A stretch of DNA of 48,569 nucleotides from an uncultured Bacteroidales bacterium. GTDB lineage: Bacteria > Bacteroidota > Bacteroidia > Bacteroidales > Dysgonomonadaceae. Shown piece after piece: positions 9,491-46,420 of this stretch. Under the pieces are notes generated by a model, which saw only the letters and a program-made list of their open reading frames with translations, did no database searches and was not told where the DNA came from. Position 1 is the first letter of the stretch; every line of letters starts with the position of its first letter. The position numbers and the translations under genes are program-made. The stretch spans positions 1 to 48,569 of the forward strand of contig CAXYYA010000028.1 of the NCBI GenBank assembly GCA_964293155.1. Direction: 5' to 3'.

Positions 9491-9839
9491 ATGATTATCC
9501 GCATAATGTCCTACATCAATTGCCACGTCCCTTTACAGGCTGTGTAAAAAACATCGCAACAGTATCAATTTGTCATTCCGACGATAGGAGGAATCTTATT
9601 TGTCATAAATTATAGACTCTTCACTCCGCAAAGCTGCGTTCAGAGTGACAAAAAGACACCTAATTTTCATTTTTACACAGCCTCTTTAGGGCGTGGTTTT
9701 TGAGATACAGAGCAGATAGGCTTTAGCCGAAATTTATACTATTATTGGGCTGAAGCCCGTAATTCTTAGACATTATTATCCCACGACTTAAAAATCGTGG
9801 CAATAGATAAAGCCGTTAGGACACTTTGCGGATAATCAT
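9491..9839. mobile_element. MITE-like element, family A (TIR ATGATTATCCGCAnARTGTCCTA...ATTGCCACG), copy 1, carrying a nested family-B insertion
   Basis: Terminal inverted repeats atgattatccgcataatgtcctacatcaattgccacg and cgtggcaatagataaagccgttaggacactttgcggataatcat. The internal gggctttagccgaaatttat...gggctgaagccc core is shared with the copies at 17755-17960 and 46226-46420 (the latter in reverse orientation). No ORF. Confidence 0.6.
9536..9684. mobile_element. MITE-like element, family B (~149 bp, TIR AGGCTGTGTAAAAA), copy 1, inserted inside family-A copy 1 with a TTTA target-site duplication
   Basis: caggctgtgtaaaaa...tttttacacagcctc, with an internal hairpin cactccgcaaagctgcgttcagagtg. 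It is flanked by direct TTTA/TTTA. The uninterrupted target, ccctaaaggg, is seen in the family-A copy at 46226-46420. Confidence 0.6.
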
Positions 9840-17703: not shown

Positions 17704-17754
17704 AGGGAAAAGGTCTGTACAACATTTGTTATAAAATTATTTTTATGATTATCC

Positions 17755-17960
17755 GCAAAGTGTCCTAATATCAATTGCCACGGCTTTCAAGCCGTGGAAG
17801 GTATGAATTTAATTAAATTGGCTTTAGCCGAAATTTATGTAAACTTCCCGATTGCGGAATAAGTTGGGCTAAAGCCCATCTCATAGATACATCTAATTAT
17901 CCACGCCATAAATGGCGTGGCAATTGACACGGTTAATTAGGAAGGTTTGCGGATAATCAT
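17755..17960. mobile_element. MITE-like element, family A, copy 2 (206 bp, intact TIRs, no family-B insert)
   Basis: atgattatccgcaaagtgtcctaatatcaattgccacg ... cgtggcaattgacacggttaattaggaaggtttgcggataatcat, with the internal ggctttagccgaaatttat...gggctaaagccc core. Confidence 0.6.
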
Positions 17961-22987: not shown

Positions 22988-23142
22988 CGTAATTTATCCT
23001 ATATTTTTATTGGGCTACAAAGATAGTGAAAATGCTTTATTTGGCAAAGACGTAAAGTTTATCCGCAATGTTTCGAGGCTGAGAATTTTCAGTAGTCATG
23101 GCTAAAGCCGGTGTTCACGTTTGCTGGGTTCTCCGCTTTAAA

Positions 23143-23292
23143 CAGGCTGTGTAAGAAACATCGCAACAGTATCATTTTGTCATTCCGACGATAGGAGGAA
23201 TCTTTATTTGTCATAAATTATAAACTCTTCACTCCGCAAAGCTGCGTTCAGAGTGACAAAAAGACACCTAATTTTCATTTTTACACAGCCTC
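23143..23292. mobile_element. MITE-like element, family B, copy 2 (TAAA target-site duplication)
   Basis: ~95% identical to 9536-9684 and flanked by direct TAAA/TAAA. A solo family-A right TIR remnant (ttgcggataatca) lies at 23317-23329. Confidence 0.6.
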
Positions 23293-23650
23293 TAAAAGCA
23301 GGGTTATTAAGACGTATTGCGGATAATCAAAAAAATGACTATTTTTGTGAACGGGAAAAACATTTGTAAATGCCCATTAATTTGGTTGATTATTAAATCG
23401 CATAAATGAAGATGTTGGCAACGATTTGTAAATGTAAACTACAAAAATTTGGTAAATGGACAAGATTTGGTTAATAACAATAGCAACTGCAATTTTTTTG
23501 ATCATAAATTTTCTTTTTTATAAAACGCTCAACGTGTATTACAAAGAGGAATTTGGCAAAAAGACGTGAAAATTAGGAGGAGGGAGAATATACTTTTGGC
23601 AGGCATCAATAATTGTCAGCACAATAGGTGCGTTGATAGCAATTTATTTT

Positions 23651-23850
23651 TTAAAATAGTAAACGTTCATCACACCCTTCCCGCTTACGCGGATTTCTCG
23701 TCATAACGAGCGCACAGGTTCGAGCGGTAATCGGTGTGTGCCGCAGGCAAGAGTTTACTTCGTAACACACGCTTTGCAAAAGCGCGCGAGCACAAGCGGG
23801 ACACGAAGTTTGTAACTTCGTGAACGAAGGCACAGCCATCGTCTCCCAAT
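23651..23850. repeat. GC-rich cluster of five short hairpins (BIME-like), related to 45780-46110
   Basis: ccgc-ttac-gcgg, ctcgt-cata-acgag, cgcttt-gca-aaagcg and cacgaagtt-tgt-aacttcgtg. It shares motifs (ttgtaacttc, tgccgca, ttcgtaac) with the 45780-46110 array. The local GC is well above the genome background. Confidence 0.35.
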
Positions 23851-23892
23851 AAAAAAATCCGCCAAACGCTTCATCGCTTGGCGGATTTTTTA
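23851..23892. terminator. Strong bidirectional terminator at the end of the minus-strand gene array
   Basis: aaaaaaa-atccgccaa-acgcttcatcgc-ttggcggat-tttttta, a 9-bp perfect stem. Confidence 0.7.
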
Positions 23893-23912
23893 TACAGTTG
23901 ATCTTTAAATTT

Positions 23913-24743
23913 CTACAAAGGTATTAAGTAAAATGCCGACACGGAAAACCCTGAACTTACTTTATAATCGGCAGCGCTATCTTTCGTAAACGGGAAATTG
24001 AGCGAATATCCAAATTGCAGCTCAAAATTGCCCAAATTTACACTCAAGGGGAGAAACAGCTGGACGTTTAACAAGCCGAATACTTCCTCGGGAGTGGTTG
24101 CAAGGTTTATGGTTTCTTTGGCAAAATAGCCCGAAATTTCAGGGCCGAAATAAAAACGGTTGTTTTTCCCAAAATCTAAAAAATAAAAACCGGCAAAAAC
24201 GCTCGGACTGAGCGTATAGAATGTCTGACTCCCGAAAAGCAAATTGTTGGAGATACGTGCTCCATACCAGTCTTTTCGGTACGAAAGCGTTAAGTTGGCA
24301 TTGTTTTCATAGGGATAAATGGCTGTGGTGTCGGAATTGTAAATGAGACGGCTGTATGAACCGCTGGCTCTGAAGTGCTTGCTTTTATCCAGGTAAAGGC
24401 CGTATCCAAGCGTCAGCATTGTTGTGGTGTAGCCGGGCGAAAGCTGGTCGTACCATATTCCGGATGCTCCTGCAAAGAGTCCGTATTTGCTGAAATAATA
24501 AACGTGACCACTTACATTCGCTAAGTCGGTACCGATTTCTCTGCCTGCAAAGAACGTTTTATTATTGTAATTAAGGCCTGCGTACAAAAAGTCTTTCTTT
24601 TCACTAATTATTTCAGACAATAAAGTTTCATCACTAAATATCAAATCATTTAGTAATGAGTCAATTCTATCGGTTTGAGCGGCGGCTGAAATACCGTATA
24701 GAAGGAACAATATAAAGAATGCTTTTTTCATATGTTTATTCAT
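23913..24743 (-). CDS. Hypothetical outer-membrane beta-barrel protein
   Basis: 276 aa with a signal peptide (MKKAFFILFLLYGISAAAQ). Amphipathic beta-strands alternate with aromatic girdles. Alternative ATG at 24731. Confidence 0.55.
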   Translation of the reverse strand: MNKHMKKAFFILFLLYGISAAAQTDRIDSLLNDLIFSDETLLSEIISEKKDFLYAGLNYNNKTFFAGREIGTDLANVSGHVYYFSKYGLFAGASGIWYDQLSPGYTTTMLTLGYGLYLDKSKHFRASGSYSRLIYNSDTTAIYPYENNANLTLSYRKDWYGARISNNLLFGSQTFYTLSPSVFAGFYFLDFGKNNRFYFGPEISGYFAKETINLATTPEEVFGLLNVQLFLPLSVNLGNFELQFGYSLNFPFTKDSAADYKVSSGFSVSAFYLIPL

Positions 24744-24916
24744 TGATTTTTACATTATGGTCACATAGCTCATTCGAACGTACGAGAGAACACGCGTTTT
24801 AATTAATCCCCTGTTTCAAAATTATTCCGGTATGGCAGTTATTCCAATACCTTTAATAAAAACTTTTGAAAGAGCGTGAGCTCTTTCAAAAGTAATTTAA
24901 TTTTCATAATTAAGGT

Positions 24917-25558
24917 TTATTTGCCGCCACCTTTCATGCCGCCACCTTTTCCACCACCTTCGCCAAGCTGCTGCATTTGTTGCTGCATTTGCTGTTGCTG
25001 GCTGCCGGTAGATATATTCTGGTGTTCTCTGATTTGGTTGCGTTGTTGTTCCTTAACCTGTTCTTTGGTTTGCGTTGCAACTCCTTTGTTCAACCGGTTT
25101 TGATCTCTATACTGCAATTTCAGCATATTGCGTTGTTCTTCCGACAGAGAATTCATAAAGGCTTCTCTTTTTTCAGCTCTGGTCATCGTTTGGTTTTGAA
25201 GCAATTCAATTTGTTCGGGGGTAAGAGAGTTCTTGAATTGTTCGCGATTTCTCTGATTTACCATGCTCTGAATATCAGCATTTACCTGATTCCCTGTTGC
25301 TGAATGTAACCGATCCCGATCCCTCTGTTGCAATTGGTCAGCATCTTCAAGCGGATCGTGAATGCGGTCTCTTGTCTGGTCTTTCAACTGATCTTTCAGT
25401 TGATCTTTAGTTTGATCTTTGGTCTGATCTTTCAATTGATCCTTTTTTTCAATTTTGGTTTGGTCTTTTGCTCTTATAGGTGTGGTTTGAGCAAATGTAT
25501 TTGCGGCTAAAAAAAGAAAAGCTACAAATAAAACTCCGAAGATTGATTTTGTTTTCAT
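24917..25558 (-). CDS. Secreted LTXXQ-motif (Spy/CpxP/ZraP-like) periplasmic protein with an N-terminal KDQ[T/L] repeats and a Gly/Lys-rich tail
   Basis: Signal peptide, then (KDQx)n, then NSLTPEQIELLQ...REAFMNSLSEEQRNMLK (two LTXXQ motifs), then GGGKGGGMKGGGK. Confidence 0.65.
   Translation of the reverse strand: MKTKSIFGVLFVAFLFLAANTFAQTTPIRAKDQTKIEKKDQLKDQTKDQTKDQLKDQLKDQTRDRIHDPLEDADQLQQRDRDRLHSATGNQVNADIQSMVNQRNREQFKNSLTPEQIELLQNQTMTRAEKREAFMNSLSEEQRNMLKLQYRDQNRLNKGVATQTKEQVKEQQRNQIREHQNISTGSQQQQMQQQMQQLGEGGGKGGGMKGGGK
25375..25475. repeat. 12-bp tandem repeats (gatctttnnntt) encoding the KDQ[T/L] repeats
   Basis: tctttcaactgatctttcagttgatctttagtttgatctttggtctgatctttcaattgatcc. Confidence 0.5.
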
Positions 25559-25691
25559 AATTCTTGTTTTTAATAATTAATTCGTTTCCGTTTTGTATAA
25601 GATAACCGAACAAGTCTTGTAATACCCTACTTTTTTATTGAGATTTTTTCAATTAAATACTTTTTTTACTTTGAAAGGCGGTTCCAGCGGT

Positions 25692-26948
25692 TTATCTTGG
25701 AGATTGTTTTCCGCCTTCTCTTCTCATTCCGCCACCTTCTTTTTCAACCGGAGTGTTGGACAACTGGTTTTTACGATTCCGTTGTTCATCTTTCACGTTC
25801 TCTTTTATTCCGTCTTTGTGAACATCTTTGCCGAATTCTATTTCAGTGTTTTGATCCCTGAGCAATTGTCTTTGTTCGTTTGTAAGGGATTTAATGAACG
25901 CTTTCTGTCTTTCAGTTCTGCTCAACGTTTTGTCTTCCAGAATGTCGAGTTGCTTTTGGGTCAGTGAGTTTCTGAATCGGTTTTTAGCCGGTTCCGCATT
26001 ATTGTCTGCTGTTTCCCCCTGGCGATTTTGAAGATTCGTGCGTTCCTGATTTTCGGTTTGCAGTTTTGTCTCCGCTTCGTCTAGTAAGTTTTTAATTTCG
26101 TTTAAATGATTTTCCTTTAGCTCATTCGACAAATTCGGTTCTACTTTTAACGGGGTTGGCTCCTGCAACTGAATTTTCTCCTGACTCATCGTTCTCTGCC
26201 TTTCCGGTTCGGGTTTCATTTCGTCTTTTGGAATGACGGCAGGTTTTTCTTCCGTGATATTCATATCTTTTTCTTCTACGGCTACAGTTACTTCCGGAGT
26301 TACCTCAGTAGGATTGTTGTGATGCTGAGAAATAATTTCGAACTGTTTATCCGCCTTCAGCCTTGCTTTCTGACCGGTCGTTATCACAACTTCGTTTTTT
26401 TCGGCAAACTCCACAAGCATCACTTTTCCATGTTCGCAATTCACCTGGTATTCATTTTCGCGAGCCGTTACCAAAAATCGTGTTCCTAAAACCACCGTTT
26501 TGGCCTTTTCAGAAACAACTTCGAACCTACTTCCGCTTTCCACTTCAAAATAAGCTTCGCCGTTTAGCTTTGTTGTCCGGCTGAACTTCCACAGCAAAGG
26601 TTTGTAGCTCAGCGACGAATTGGCGTGCAACACCACCTTGGAATTGTCCGGCAAAAGAAAACTCTTTTCAGCTATCACGGTTTTCACATTCTTTGTATAT
26701 AATGTTGCTGTAACAGCAAATGAAACCAATAAAGCGATCGAGGCTACTGCCGCGTATTTCAACAGTTGGAAATACCGGACGGGCTGAACTTTCTTCCCGG
26801 TTGGGTTAGCATCCAGTTTTGCTTCCATTTCCATCCAAATATCCTCTTTGGACCTGATCCATTGAGGTCGGGTGTTGGAAATGATATCTTCTACTTCCTT
26901 CGAAAATACGATATTTTCTTTTTCGGAATATGTATGTTTAATAATCAT
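25692..26948 (-). CDS. FecR-family anti-sigma factor with a C-terminal LTXXQ (Spy/CpxP-like) extension
   Basis: 418 aa with a cytoplasmic N-terminus, one TM (LLKYAAVASIALLVSFAVTATLY) and a FecR domain (GEAYFEV...VVLGTRFLV). After a ~180-aa Glu/Lys/Gln-rich linker comes NSLTQKQLDILEDKTLSRTERQKAFIKSLTNEQRQLLR. This segment is homologous to the protein encoded at 24917-25558, including the Gly-rich end. It starts 9 bp after the sigma gene. Confidence 0.75.
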   Translation of the reverse strand: MIIKHTYSEKENIVFSKEVEDIISNTRPQWIRSKEDIWMEMEAKLDANPTGKKVQPVRYFQLLKYAAVASIALLVSFAVTATLYTKNVKTVIAEKSFLLPDNSKVVLHANSSLSYKPLLWKFSRTTKLNGEAYFEVESGSRFEVVSEKAKTVVLGTRFLVTARENEYQVNCEHGKVMLVEFAEKNEVVITTGQKARLKADKQFEIISQHHNNPTEVTPEVTVAVEEKDMNITEEKPAVIPKDEMKPEPERQRTMSQEKIQLQEPTPLKVEPNLSNELKENHLNEIKNLLDEAETKLQTENQERTNLQNRQGETADNNAEPAKNRFRNSLTQKQLDILEDKTLSRTERQKAFIKSLTNEQRQLLRDQNTEIEFGKDVHKDGIKENVKDEQRNRKNQLSNTPVEKEGGGMRREGGKQSPR

Positions 26949-26957
26949 AGGGTTTGG

Positions 26958-27440
26958 TTATAATAATGATTTTTTCAAAAATTGTAATGCTGCACTCATT
27001 CGTTTTTCTACAGCTTTCACACTTAAGCCCAGACGTTCGGCAATTTCCCAGTATTTCAAGCCCTCAATCCTCGACATTAGAAATACGGCTCGTTGCTTTT
27101 CGTTCAAACTGTTAAGTGCGATTTTATACTTTTCAAGTAACTCTTTGTGACTCAATGTATCTTCTGTCGAAGGCTCGTTACCGTAATAACGGATCGAAGC
27201 TATATAGTTCATTTCCAATACATCACGTCTATATTTACTAACAAACATGTCACCGGCAATTTTATAGAGGAGACGTTTTGCTGTTGTTTTATCTACCTCG
27301 AATTGTTTCTCCCAAAGCCGCATAAAAACCTCCTGTGCTATGTCTGAAGCATCATCCGGCCCCGCACCTCTATAATACAGGTAACCCCGTACCGAATCGA
27401 AGTAGGTATCGAACAAATATTTAAAATCCTCTTTTGTCAA
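26958..27440 (-). CDS. ECF-type RNA polymerase sigma-70 factor (copy 2)
   Basis: 160 aa with region 2 (DIAQEVFMRLW) and region 4 HTH (LKYWEIAERLGLSVKAVEKRM). The start codon is TTG; an in-frame stop lies immediately upstream and no ATG precedes region 2. Confidence 0.8.
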   Translation of the reverse strand: MTKEDFKYLFDTYFDSVRGYLYYRGAGPDDASDIAQEVFMRLWEKQFEVDKTTAKRLLYKIAGDMFVSKYRRDVLEMNYIASIRYYGNEPSTEDTLSHKELLEKYKIALNSLNEKQRAVFLMSRIEGLKYWEIAERLGLSVKAVEKRMSAALQFLKKSLL

Positions 27441-27708
27441 AATACAATGTACTTAACTTTGTTAGTATCCGAATGAATAAGCAAATACCCTACAATTTTT
27501 ATTATTATTCTTAATAAATTCCCGAAAATTATGAAAAATCAGGCATTTCAGGAAGATACCCATGAGTTTATTTCAACTTTTTTGACGATAAATAAACCGG
27601 CATTTTAAGTGGCACCGTGCTCAGCTATTTTTTCGCTGAATAAGGAATGGGCAATGCCGCAAGAAACGTTAGTGCCCGGTTTTATAATAAACAATATAAA
27701 TAAAGCGC

Positions 27709-46225: not shown

Positions 46226-46420
46226 ACATTATCCGCGAAGTGTTCTAACGGCTTTATCCATTGCCACGACTTTTAAGTCGTGGGATAATGATGTCTAAGA
46301 ATTACGGGCTTTAGCCCAATAATAGTATAAATTTCGGCTAAAGCCTATCTGCTCTGTATCTCAAAAACCACGCCCTAAAGGGACGTGGCAATTGATGTAG
46401 GACATTATACGGATAATCAT
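46226..46420. mobile_element. MITE-like element, family A, copy 3 (reverse orientation, left TIR slightly degenerate)
   Basis: ...cattatccgcgaagtgttctaacggctttatccattgccacg ... cgtggcaattgatgtaggacattatacggataatcat. The core is the reverse complement of 9690-9760, and it carries the uninterrupted ccctaaaggg site. Confidence 0.55.

What the first reader, a model, noticed from the sequence alone, without database searches (positions are those of the whole stretch)
9536..9684. 149-bp miniature inverted-repeat element (family B) with clean 4-bp AT target duplications, two copies
Copy 1 (9536-9684) is flanked by TTTA/TTTA and copy 2 (23143-23292) by TAAA/TAAA. The TIRs are aggctgtgtaaaaa / tttttacacagcct. 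The interior folds into a long hairpin (cactccgcaaagctgcgttcagagtg). The empty site ccctaaaggg is preserved in another family-A copy at 46226-46420, which supports real transposition in trans by an absent transposase.
Basis: seen in the sequence. Interest (0 to 1): 0.6.

Follow-up and report, generated by a model that had tools for sequence, protein, structure and literature searches.

The report
Small IS1182-type transposon in hairpin loops
This is a real 149-bp non-coding "hitch-hiker" transposon (a MITE) whose ends match insertion sequences of the IS1182 family and which lands in the tips of DNA hairpins; it is a clean example of a known kind of element.

Summary
Two 97%-identical copies (9536-9684, 23143-23292) have perfect 14-bp terminal inverted repeats and 4-bp direct duplications (TTTA, TAAA).

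Copy 1 splits a family-A repeat. An intact family-A copy (46226-46419) shows the unfilled site, so the insertion is exactly 149 + 4 bp.

A related strain (L121) has the orthologous site without copy 2. Two others (L122/L123) carry a third copy in the homologous hairpin of another family-A element, in the opposite orientation.

The ends, S-AGGCTGTGTAAAAA, are the ends of full-length IS1182-family insertion sequences. About 25 such elements were retrieved by protein similarity alone, down to 36% identity, and carry this terminus. Most have a 4-bp duplication at the same boundary.

Across the 32 tabulated elements, 20 have a perfect 4-bp duplication. Their targets are significantly palindromic (4.66 of 8 flanking positions complementary, against 2.6 expected).

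Hairpin targeting is already published for IS1182 members (IS1272/TnSha1), and IS1182-derived MITEs with 4-bp repeats are known in Methanosarcina.

The host is a Dysgonomonadaceae-like Bacteroidales bacterium. The window holds no transposase, and the cognate partner in this genome was not found.

Verdict: a real MITE, a new member of a known kind, of modest interest.

The parts
9536..9684 (+). MITE family B, copy 1 (149 bp)
   Evidence: Clean 153-bp insertion relative to the intact family-A copy.
9536..9550 (+). Left terminal inverted repeat of copy 1 (C+AGGCTGTGTAAAAA)
   Evidence: Identical to the termini of IS1182-family elements L127, L170 and L162.
9670..9684 (-). Right terminal inverted repeat of copy 1 (read inward: G+AGGCTGTGTAAAAA)
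   Evidence: Identical to the termini of IS1182-family elements L154 and L210.
9532..9535 (.). Target-site duplication TTTA, left of copy 1
9685..9688 (.). Target-site duplication TTTA, right of copy 1
9572..9595 (+). Left sub-terminal module GTCATTCCGA..GGAATC (short hairpin ATTCC/GGAAT)
   Evidence: Read from the sequence. The same module is found in MITEs L125, L126, L135, L133 and L047.
9622..9647 (+). Right sub-terminal hairpin CACTCCGCAAAGCTGCGTTCAGAGTG
   Evidence: Predicted in the minimum-free-energy and centroid folds.
23143..23292 (+). MITE family B, copy 2 (150 bp)
   Evidence: Absent from the orthologous site in strain contig L121.
23139..23142 (.). Target-site duplication TAAA, left of copy 2
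23293..23296 (.). Target-site duplication TAAA, right of copy 2
9492..9838 (+). Family-A repeat that hosts copy 1, split at the loop of its hairpin ccacgtccc-TTTA-gggcgtgg
46226..46419 (-). Intact family-A repeat. The unfilled site TAAA is at 46376-46379, in the hairpin 46368-46388
   Evidence: The fold places TTTA in the loop.
23056..23329 (+). Degenerate family-A-like element that hosts copy 2. The insertion is at the tip of the imperfect hairpin ccgcttt-a-aaagcagg

Best explanation
Family B is a non-autonomous miniature transposon (MITE). It is built from the two ends of an IS1182-family insertion sequence and is moved in trans by an IS1182-family DDE transposase encoded elsewhere in the genome or community.

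Inferred mechanism: the transposase recognises the 15-16 bp termini S-AGGCTGTGTAAAAA(C). It inserts the element at the centre of a palindromic or hairpin-forming target with a 4-bp stagger, and repair of the stagger duplicates the 4 bp.

In this genome the hairpin-rich family-A repeats supply such targets, which accounts for B being found nested in A.

Shown here: the anatomy, the clean insertion, presence/absence between strains, identical termini, duplication length and palindromic target in full-length IS1182 elements.

Inferred, not shown: which transposase moves B, and that recognition is of DNA structure or symmetry.
For: 1. Real insertion.
- Copy 1 equals the intact family-A sequence plus 149 bp plus a 4-bp repeat.
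- Copy 2 is absent from the orthologous site in L121, a contig encoding an identical Ffh protein.
- A third copy end (94% identical) abuts CTTTAGGGCGTGG of another family-A copy in L122/L123. It is in the opposite orientation and shifted by 1 nt.

2. Termini equal IS1182 termini.
- L127 is a 1.67-kb element with a 481-aa transposase. It scores 459 bits on NCBIfam NF033551, IS1182 family (cutoff 270), and hits Pfam DUF772 and DDE_Tnp_1_6.
- Elements found by protein similarity only carry S-AG[GA]C[TC]GTGT[AGC]AAAA at both tips. They include L138 (Ralstonia, annotated IS1182 family), L142-L160, L170, L172, L194, L210 and L213, down to 36% identity. Several match B's 15-mer exactly.

3. Same duplication. 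20 of the 32 tabulated elements (7 of 13 MITEs, 13 of 19 full-length elements) have a perfect 4-bp direct repeat abutting S-AGG...CCT-S. Many are non-palindromic (GACC, GGTC, AACC, TGCC, GGGT, CACC, AATG, TTCA), so they are true direct repeats.

4. Same target type. 4.66 of 8 flanking positions are complementary across the duplication, against 2.6 (sd 0.2) in two nulls; 0 of 5000 permutations reach this. Clear examples are B1 ccacgtccc-TTTA-gggcgtgg, L126 ccccgata-TTTA-tatcgggg and L066 ggaat-TGT-attcc.

5. Literature.
- IS1182-family members IS1272 and TnSha1 target hairpins, with repeated hits on one hairpin in both orientations (PMC4923244, PMC5678879).
- Those papers report that Siguier et al. 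note palindromic targets for some IS1182 members.
- IS1182 (ISMac2)-related MITEs of 160 bp with 4-bp repeats are listed for Methanosarcina acetivorans (PMC3852290).

6. No coding capacity and no transposase in the window.
Against: - No full-length partner with B's sub-terminal sequence was found in a Bacteroidota genome. All confirmed full-length relatives come from other, mostly GC-richer, contigs.
- Only the terminal 15-16 bp are shared with them.
- Twelve of the 32 elements lack a perfect 4-bp repeat. They show 0-3 bp, or 6 bp.
- L127, L132 and L137 were fished with a DNA pattern taken from B, so they are not independent evidence. The protein-ascertained set is.
Confidence: 0.85

Rival explanations
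1. B is a MITE, but it is mobilised by a transposase of another family with GAG/GG-type ends and 2-4 bp duplications (for example the IS427 or IS1031 groups of IS5). The resemblance to IS1182 termini would be convergent or reflect the common IS4/IS5/IS1182 ancestry.
For: - The IS1182 transposase of L127 also gives weaker hits to IS5-type models, so the families are related.
- Only about 15 bp are shared with the full-length elements.
- From memory, IS5 subgroups have GAG/GG ends and 2-4 bp repeats. This was not checked here.
Against: - Every full-length element found with these exact termini encodes an IS1182-family protein.
- Duplication length, boundary position and palindromic target all match that clade.
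- No IS5-family element with these ends turned up in any scan.
Confidence: 0.07
2. B is a decayed relic that no longer moves. The two copies and the strain differences reflect old insertions plus later deletion or recombination, not current transposition.
For: - No partner transposase is in the window.
- The copies differ at 4 of 150 positions.
- The L121 allele also differs by several substitutions around the site.
Against: - Presence/absence and a third, different insertion are seen among strains whose Ffh proteins are identical.
- All four inverted repeats are intact, with one mismatch in one of them.
- Precise loss of 149 + 4 bp by deletion is less likely than gain.
Confidence: 0.06
3. B is primarily a structured regulatory or RNA element (a terminator, attenuator or small RNA) that was duplicated, not a transposon.
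For: The single strand folds better than shuffles (z = -4.7). Both copies are intergenic, and copy 2 lies 156 bp upstream of ffh.
Against: - No Rfam family matches.
- No terminator-like site lies within B, and promoter-like matches are not informative.
- The fold is mostly the inverted termini pairing.
- Target duplications, unfilled sites and termini shared with transposase-bearing elements are not explained by this reading.
Confidence: 0.02

Closest known systems
IS1182-family insertion sequences of the clade with termini S-AGRCYGTGTNAAAAC (for example the annotated IS1182-family element on Ralstonia solanacearum plasmid CP052121.1, locus L138; metagenomic L127)
   Same: Identical 15-bp termini at the very tip, 4-bp target duplication at the same boundary, and palindromic targets.
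   Different: B is 149 bp with no transposase gene. Its sub-terminal sequence (TTTGTCATTCCGA hairpin modules) is not shared with these elements, apart from the motif used to fish L127 and L137. The hosts differ: Bacteroidales here, mostly GC-richer contigs there.
IS1182 (ISMac2)-related MITEs of Methanosarcina acetivorans (PMC3852290, table of new MITEs)
   Same: Same class: roughly 160-bp non-autonomous derivatives assigned to IS1182, multi-copy, with a 4-bp direct repeat reported for one family.
   Different: Archaeal host and longer inverted repeats (25-26 bp). I did not compare sequences. Hairpin targeting is not described in the passage I read.
IS1272 and TnSha1 of staphylococci (IS1182 family; PMC4923244, PMC5678879)
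   Same: The family-level transposase is the same. Both insert into hairpin-forming inverted repeats with little primary-sequence preference, and both hit one hairpin repeatedly in both orientations, as with B1 and the L122 copy.
   Different: IS1272 is reported to delete part or all of the target stem-loop and to make no duplication. B1 leaves the hairpin intact and duplicates exactly 4 bp at its tip. That outcome corresponds to the loop-duplication route those authors drew as a hypothetical alternative.
Insertion sequences that target repetitive extragenic palindromes (survey: PMC1525189)
   Same: A mobile element lands preferentially inside another short palindromic repeat family, giving nested repeats.
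   Different: I did not read that paper beyond its abstract. The transposase families named there may differ, and family A is not shown to be a REP.

Membership tests
Bacterial MITE (miniature inverted-repeat transposable element) | Short (about 50-500 bp) with no coding capacity | tested here: met
   149 and 150 bp. No ORF of 100 aa or more overlaps either copy.
Bacterial MITE (miniature inverted-repeat transposable element) | Terminal inverted repeats | tested here: met
   14-bp perfect repeat at copy 1, one mismatch at copy 2. Four matches against 0.57 expected.
Bacterial MITE (miniature inverted-repeat transposable element) | Target-site duplication, verified against an unfilled site | tested here: met
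   TTTA and TAAA. Unfilled paralogous site at 46376-46379 and unfilled orthologous site in L121.
Bacterial MITE (miniature inverted-repeat transposable element) | Multiple dispersed copies | tested here: met
   Two copies in the window and a third at a different site in L122/L123. The genome-wide count is unknown.
Bacterial MITE (miniature inverted-repeat transposable element) | Ends shared with an autonomous element | tested here: met
   15-bp termini identical to those of IS1182-family elements. Shown at family level only, not in the same genome.
IS1182-family-derived element | Termini match those flanking an IS1182-family transposase gene | tested here: met
   NF033551 at 459 bits for L127. 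About 25 protein-ascertained elements carry the motif at both tips.
IS1182-family-derived element | Same duplication length and boundary as the autonomous relatives | tested here: met
   4 bp abutting S-AGG...CCT-S in 13 of 19 full-length elements and 7 of 13 MITEs tabulated.
IS1182-family-derived element | Palindromic or hairpin target preference reported for family members | tested here: met
   4.66 of 8 against 2.6 complementary flank positions, 0 of 5000 permutations. Literature: PMC4923244, PMC5678879.
IS1182-family-derived element | Cognate transposase present in the same genome and able to mobilise it | not testable with these tools
   The window has none. The source genome is seen only as short Logan/ENA contigs.
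IS1272-type stem-loop-replacing transposition | Deletion of the target stem-loop and no target duplication | tested here: not met
   B1 leaves both hairpin arms intact and duplicates 4 bp.
IS630 / Tc1-mariner-derived MITE | TA target duplication | tested here: not met
   No boundary choice gives TA at both copies. The duplications are 4 bp and of varied sequence.
IS200/IS605-derived palindrome-associated element or REP | No terminal inverted repeats and no duplication; sub-terminal hairpins next to a fixed tetranucleotide | tested here: not met
   B has perfect terminal inverted repeats and a duplication.
IS5 family (IS427 / IS1031 groups) derived MITE | Termini shared with an IS5-family element | not tested
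   No IS5-family element with these ends appeared in any scan, but none was specifically sought. ISfinder was not available.

The most novel reading that the evidence does not exclude
In this IS1182 clade and its MITEs, integration would be guided by target symmetry or structure rather than by sequence. The length of the duplication would equal the spacer between the two palindrome arms.

Supporting pattern:
- Where the duplication is short, the stems abut it directly: 2 bp in L047, L113 and L127, and 3 bp in L066.
- Where it is 4 bp, it sits at 4-nt loops (B1, L126).
- Where there is none, the arms abut each other (L138, L129, L134, L135).

This would link the clean loop duplication seen here, the variable direct repeats of the family, and the stem-loop deletion of IS1272 as outcomes of one mechanism. 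Family A would then act as a self-propagating landing pad for B.
Probability: 0.3. Interest if true: 0.5.

Novelty: new member of a known kind. Interest (0 to 1): 0.3.

Why it matters
- It gives a named family (IS1182) to a widespread set of small repeats in Bacteroidota and metagenomes that share the terminus GAGGCTGTGTAAAAA. This helps repeat annotation, and it accounts for the short-read contigs of these strains ending inside or next to the B and family-A repeats.
- It adds natural, base-precise examples of hairpin-tip insertion with a 4-bp duplication for a family whose hairpin targeting has so far been documented mainly as a deletion-causing process in staphylococci.
- The strain-to-strain differences upstream of ffh show that the element has moved recently in a Dysgonomonadaceae population.
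- None of this changes current understanding of transposition.

Tried and rejected
- **Genome-collection scan** with SAGGCTGTGTAAAAAWSA. The pattern was too loose and the scan stopped at 120 rows. Most hits are a coding motif in a conserved ~685-aa gene. It still yielded six to seven MITE-like pairs (L013, L047, L051, L066, L067, L113, and doubtfully L012). The 1.2-kb pair in L094 encloses ordinary genes and was rejected.
- **Viral-contig DNA scans** with two B-derived patterns: no hits.
- **Rfam and tRNA scans** of the window: nothing.
- **Literature search** for the terminal repeat and for the sub-terminal module as text strings: nothing relevant.
- **blastn of B against plasmids**: only a Calothrix element that shares the interior module but has different termini.
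- **Search for a Bacteroidota full-length partner.** The AT-rich IS1182 relatives L163-L167, L214 and L215 have other termini or none matched, for example AGGCCGTCCGAAAAC. A protein search with L160 gave 8000 unnamed hits and no way to select by taxon.
- **Orthologous site for copy 1.** Contigs carrying the neighbouring gene all end inside family A before reaching B1, so they are uninformative.
- **Promoter and terminator scans** around both copies: nothing above background within B.
- **L131**, a single B-like end, has no partner and no transposase.
- **TA, 2-bp and 3-bp duplication readings** for B1 and B2 were considered. They were rejected once the family-wide boundary was fixed.

Full report
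**1. The observation**

Reading the window confirms the finding at the stated coordinates.

- Copy 1 is 9536-9684, flanked by TTTA on both sides.
- Copy 2 is 23143-23292, flanked by TAAA on both sides.
- The two copies align at 97.3% identity, with three substitutions and one 1-nt indel. Similarity stops exactly at the element ends.
- The 14-mer AGGCTGTGTAAAAA occurs four times at up to 2 mismatches, at the four ends in inverted orientation. Shuffles of the window give 0.57.
- Copy 1 lies inside another repeat, family A (9492-9838).
- The intact family-A copy at 46226-46419 aligns to both halves with only 4 bp repeated. The insertion is therefore exactly 149 bp plus a 4-bp duplication into ccacgtccc-TTTA-gggcgtgg.
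- Folding the intact family-A copy places TTTA in the loop of that hairpin.
- B itself folds through its termini plus a short inner hairpin at 9622-9647. The energy is -21.7 kcal/mol, z = -4.7.

**2. Context**

- The window is a Bacteroidota chromosome segment. It carries a SusC/SusD pair, hisS, ffh, folD and other housekeeping genes.
- The Ffh protein is 92-95% identical to those of Petrimonas, Proteiniphilum, Fermentimonas and Dysgonomonadaceae.
- Thirty ORFs were scanned with Pfam and none is a transposase. tblastn with an IS1182 transposase finds nothing in the window.
- Rfam and tRNA scans are empty.
- Copy 1 lies between two convergent genes. Copy 2 lies 156 bp upstream of ffh.
- Copy 2 is also nested in a degenerate family-A-like element at 23056-23329. 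It sits at the tip of an imperfect hairpin.

**3. Evidence of movement between strains**

Contigs that encode an identical Ffh protein were retrieved.

- L121 carries the same family-A-like element upstream of ffh but without copy 2. The sequence runs straight through ..ccgctTTTTaaagagg...
- L122 and L123 have a different arrangement upstream of ffh. There, the end of a third B copy (94% identical) abuts CTTTAGGGCGTGG of another family-A copy.
- That is the homologous hairpin to the one hit by copy 1. The insertion is in the opposite orientation and shifted by one base.
- B has therefore inserted at least three times into family-A hairpins, and it is polymorphic among very close relatives.
- Short-read contigs of these strains end inside or next to B and family A, as expected for dispersed repeats.

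**4. What it derives from**

The genome-collection scan was too loose. It still showed MITE-like pairs with the same termini and unrelated interiors in Bacteroidales, Cytophagales, Chitinophagaceae and Chryseolinea contigs.

A metagenome scan requiring the terminus plus the sub-terminal TTTGTCA gave 14 loci.

- Several are closer relatives of B. L125, L126 and L135 have duplications TTCA, TTTA and TTAA/TTGA.
- L126 sits in a perfect hairpin, ccccgata-TTTA-tatcgggg.
- One locus, L127, is a full-length element of 1.67 kb. Its 481-aa protein is an IS1182-family transposase. It scores 459 bits on NCBIfam NF033551 (cutoff 270) and hits Pfam DUF772, DDE_Tnp_1_6 and DDE_Tnp_1.

Because L127 was fished with B's own sequence, I then looked for relatives by protein similarity only.

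- A plasmid tblastn gave an annotated IS1182-family element in Ralstonia (L138) with termini GAGGCTGTGTGAAAAC.
- Two protein-guided scans of viral contigs gave about 25 further elements, down to 36% identity.
- These carry S-AG[GA]C[TC]GTGT[AGC]AAAA at both tips, about 60 nt before the start codon and about 150 nt after the stop.
- Several (L154, L162, L170, L210) match B's 15-mer exactly.
- Only these 15-16 bp are conserved between sub-lineages. That is the level of similarity B shows.

**5. Duplication and target**

The boundary was set as S-AGG...CCT-S. On that basis 20 of the 32 tabulated elements have a perfect 4-bp direct repeat abutting the element: 7 of 13 MITEs and 13 of 19 full-length elements.

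- Many of these repeats are non-palindromic: GACC, GGTC, AACC, TGCC, GGGT, CACC, AATG, TTCA.
- This settles the 2-, 3- or 4-bp ambiguity that B1 and B2 alone leave open.
- It also shows that AT-richness reflects the host rather than the element.
- The 8 nt on either side of the duplication are complementary at 4.66 positions on average. Two nulls (shuffled arms, and arms paired across sites) give 2.6 (sd 0.2), and 0 of 5000 permutations reach the observed value.
- Targets are therefore centres of imperfect palindromes.
- The remaining 12 elements have 0-3 bp, or 6 bp. Several of these have arms abutting the short repeat or each other. This prompts, but does not prove, the idea that repeat length follows the spacer of the palindrome.

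**6. Comparison with what is known**

- IS1272 and TnSha1 are IS1182-family members in staphylococci. They are reported to insert into hairpin structures with little sequence preference, repeatedly and in both orientations. They delete the stem-loop and make no duplication (PMC4923244, PMC5678879).
- Both papers note that the review by Siguier et al. mentions palindromic targets for some IS1182 members.
- PMC5678879 draws a hypothetical route in which only the loop is duplicated. B1, L126 and L066 look like that outcome.
- MITEs assigned to IS1182 (ISMac2), about 160 bp long with 4-bp repeats, are listed for Methanosarcina acetivorans (PMC3852290).
- B is therefore a new member of a known kind.
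- It fails the defining feature of IS1272-type stem-loop replacement, because there is no deletion and there is a duplication. It also fails those of IS630-type (TA) and IS200/IS605-type elements.

**7. What remains open**

- I did not find the cognate full-length element in a Bacteroidota genome.
- The copy number in a complete genome is unknown.
- The nature of family A was not resolved.
- An IS5-family origin was not specifically excluded.

**8. Verdict**

Family B is an IS1182-family MITE that targets hairpin tips. Confidence is 0.85, interest is modest (0.3), and it is a new member of a known kind.

Noticed in passing
window 9492-9838, 17746-17959, 46226-46419, 23056-23329: Family A is a 195-215 bp repeat with ends (A)TGATTATCCGC. 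Its body is a string of short GC hairpins (ggctttagcc, gggctaaagccc, ccacgNNNNcgtgg). There are three clear copies plus one degenerate copy. I saw no consistent target duplication, so its mobility mechanism is unresolved. It serves as the landing site for B.
   Followed up: partly
L140 about 385-520 (Calothrix sp. PCC 7716 plasmid AP025020.1 166967-167057); also L125, L126, L133, L135, L047: B's sub-terminal modules (TTTGTCATTCYGA-hairpin-GAATC, and CTTCACTCCGC..GTTCAGNNTGAC) recur in a cyanobacterial element. That element has different terminal repeats (GGAGCATT). The hairpin modules are therefore more widely shared than the termini, and I have no explanation for this.
   Followed up: partly
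window 23000-27700 versus L175 9871-10001 and L122/L123 1-240: The region upstream of ffh varies between strains. The window has about 4.7 kb (two unknown ORFs, a FecR-like gene and an unscanned 160-aa ORF at 26958-27440) between ffh and a TPR gene. These two genes are adjacent in the relative L175. The MITEs sit at the edge of this variable segment.
   Followed up: partly
window 36145-36473: There are about three tandem copies of a 117-bp unit (72-80% identical) inside overlapping ORFs at 36084-36668 (+) and 36124-36687 (-). The ORF at 36124-36687 (-) has no Pfam hit; the (+) ORF was not scanned.
   Followed up: no
L012 284-726 and L014 6852-6872 (Calditrichia MAG contigs): Two contigs of one MAG carry 21 nt identical to B's right end. 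In L012 the 443-bp stretch between the ends contains family-A-like hairpin modules. This may be another nested arrangement in a different phylum.
   Followed up: no
L001, L009, L017 and about 37 other loci: The 18-nt pattern SAGGCTGTGTAAAAAWSA also lies in frame inside a conserved ~685-aa gene of Acinetobacter and other bacteria. This is a coding coincidence unrelated to the element, and it swamped the genome scan.
   Followed up: yes
L138 (GGTC/GACC), L129, L134, L135: Four elements have no direct duplication, and their flanks are inverted complements abutting the termini. Either they inserted into a spacer-less palindrome or their inverted repeats are longer. This cannot be decided without unfilled sites.
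   Followed up: partly
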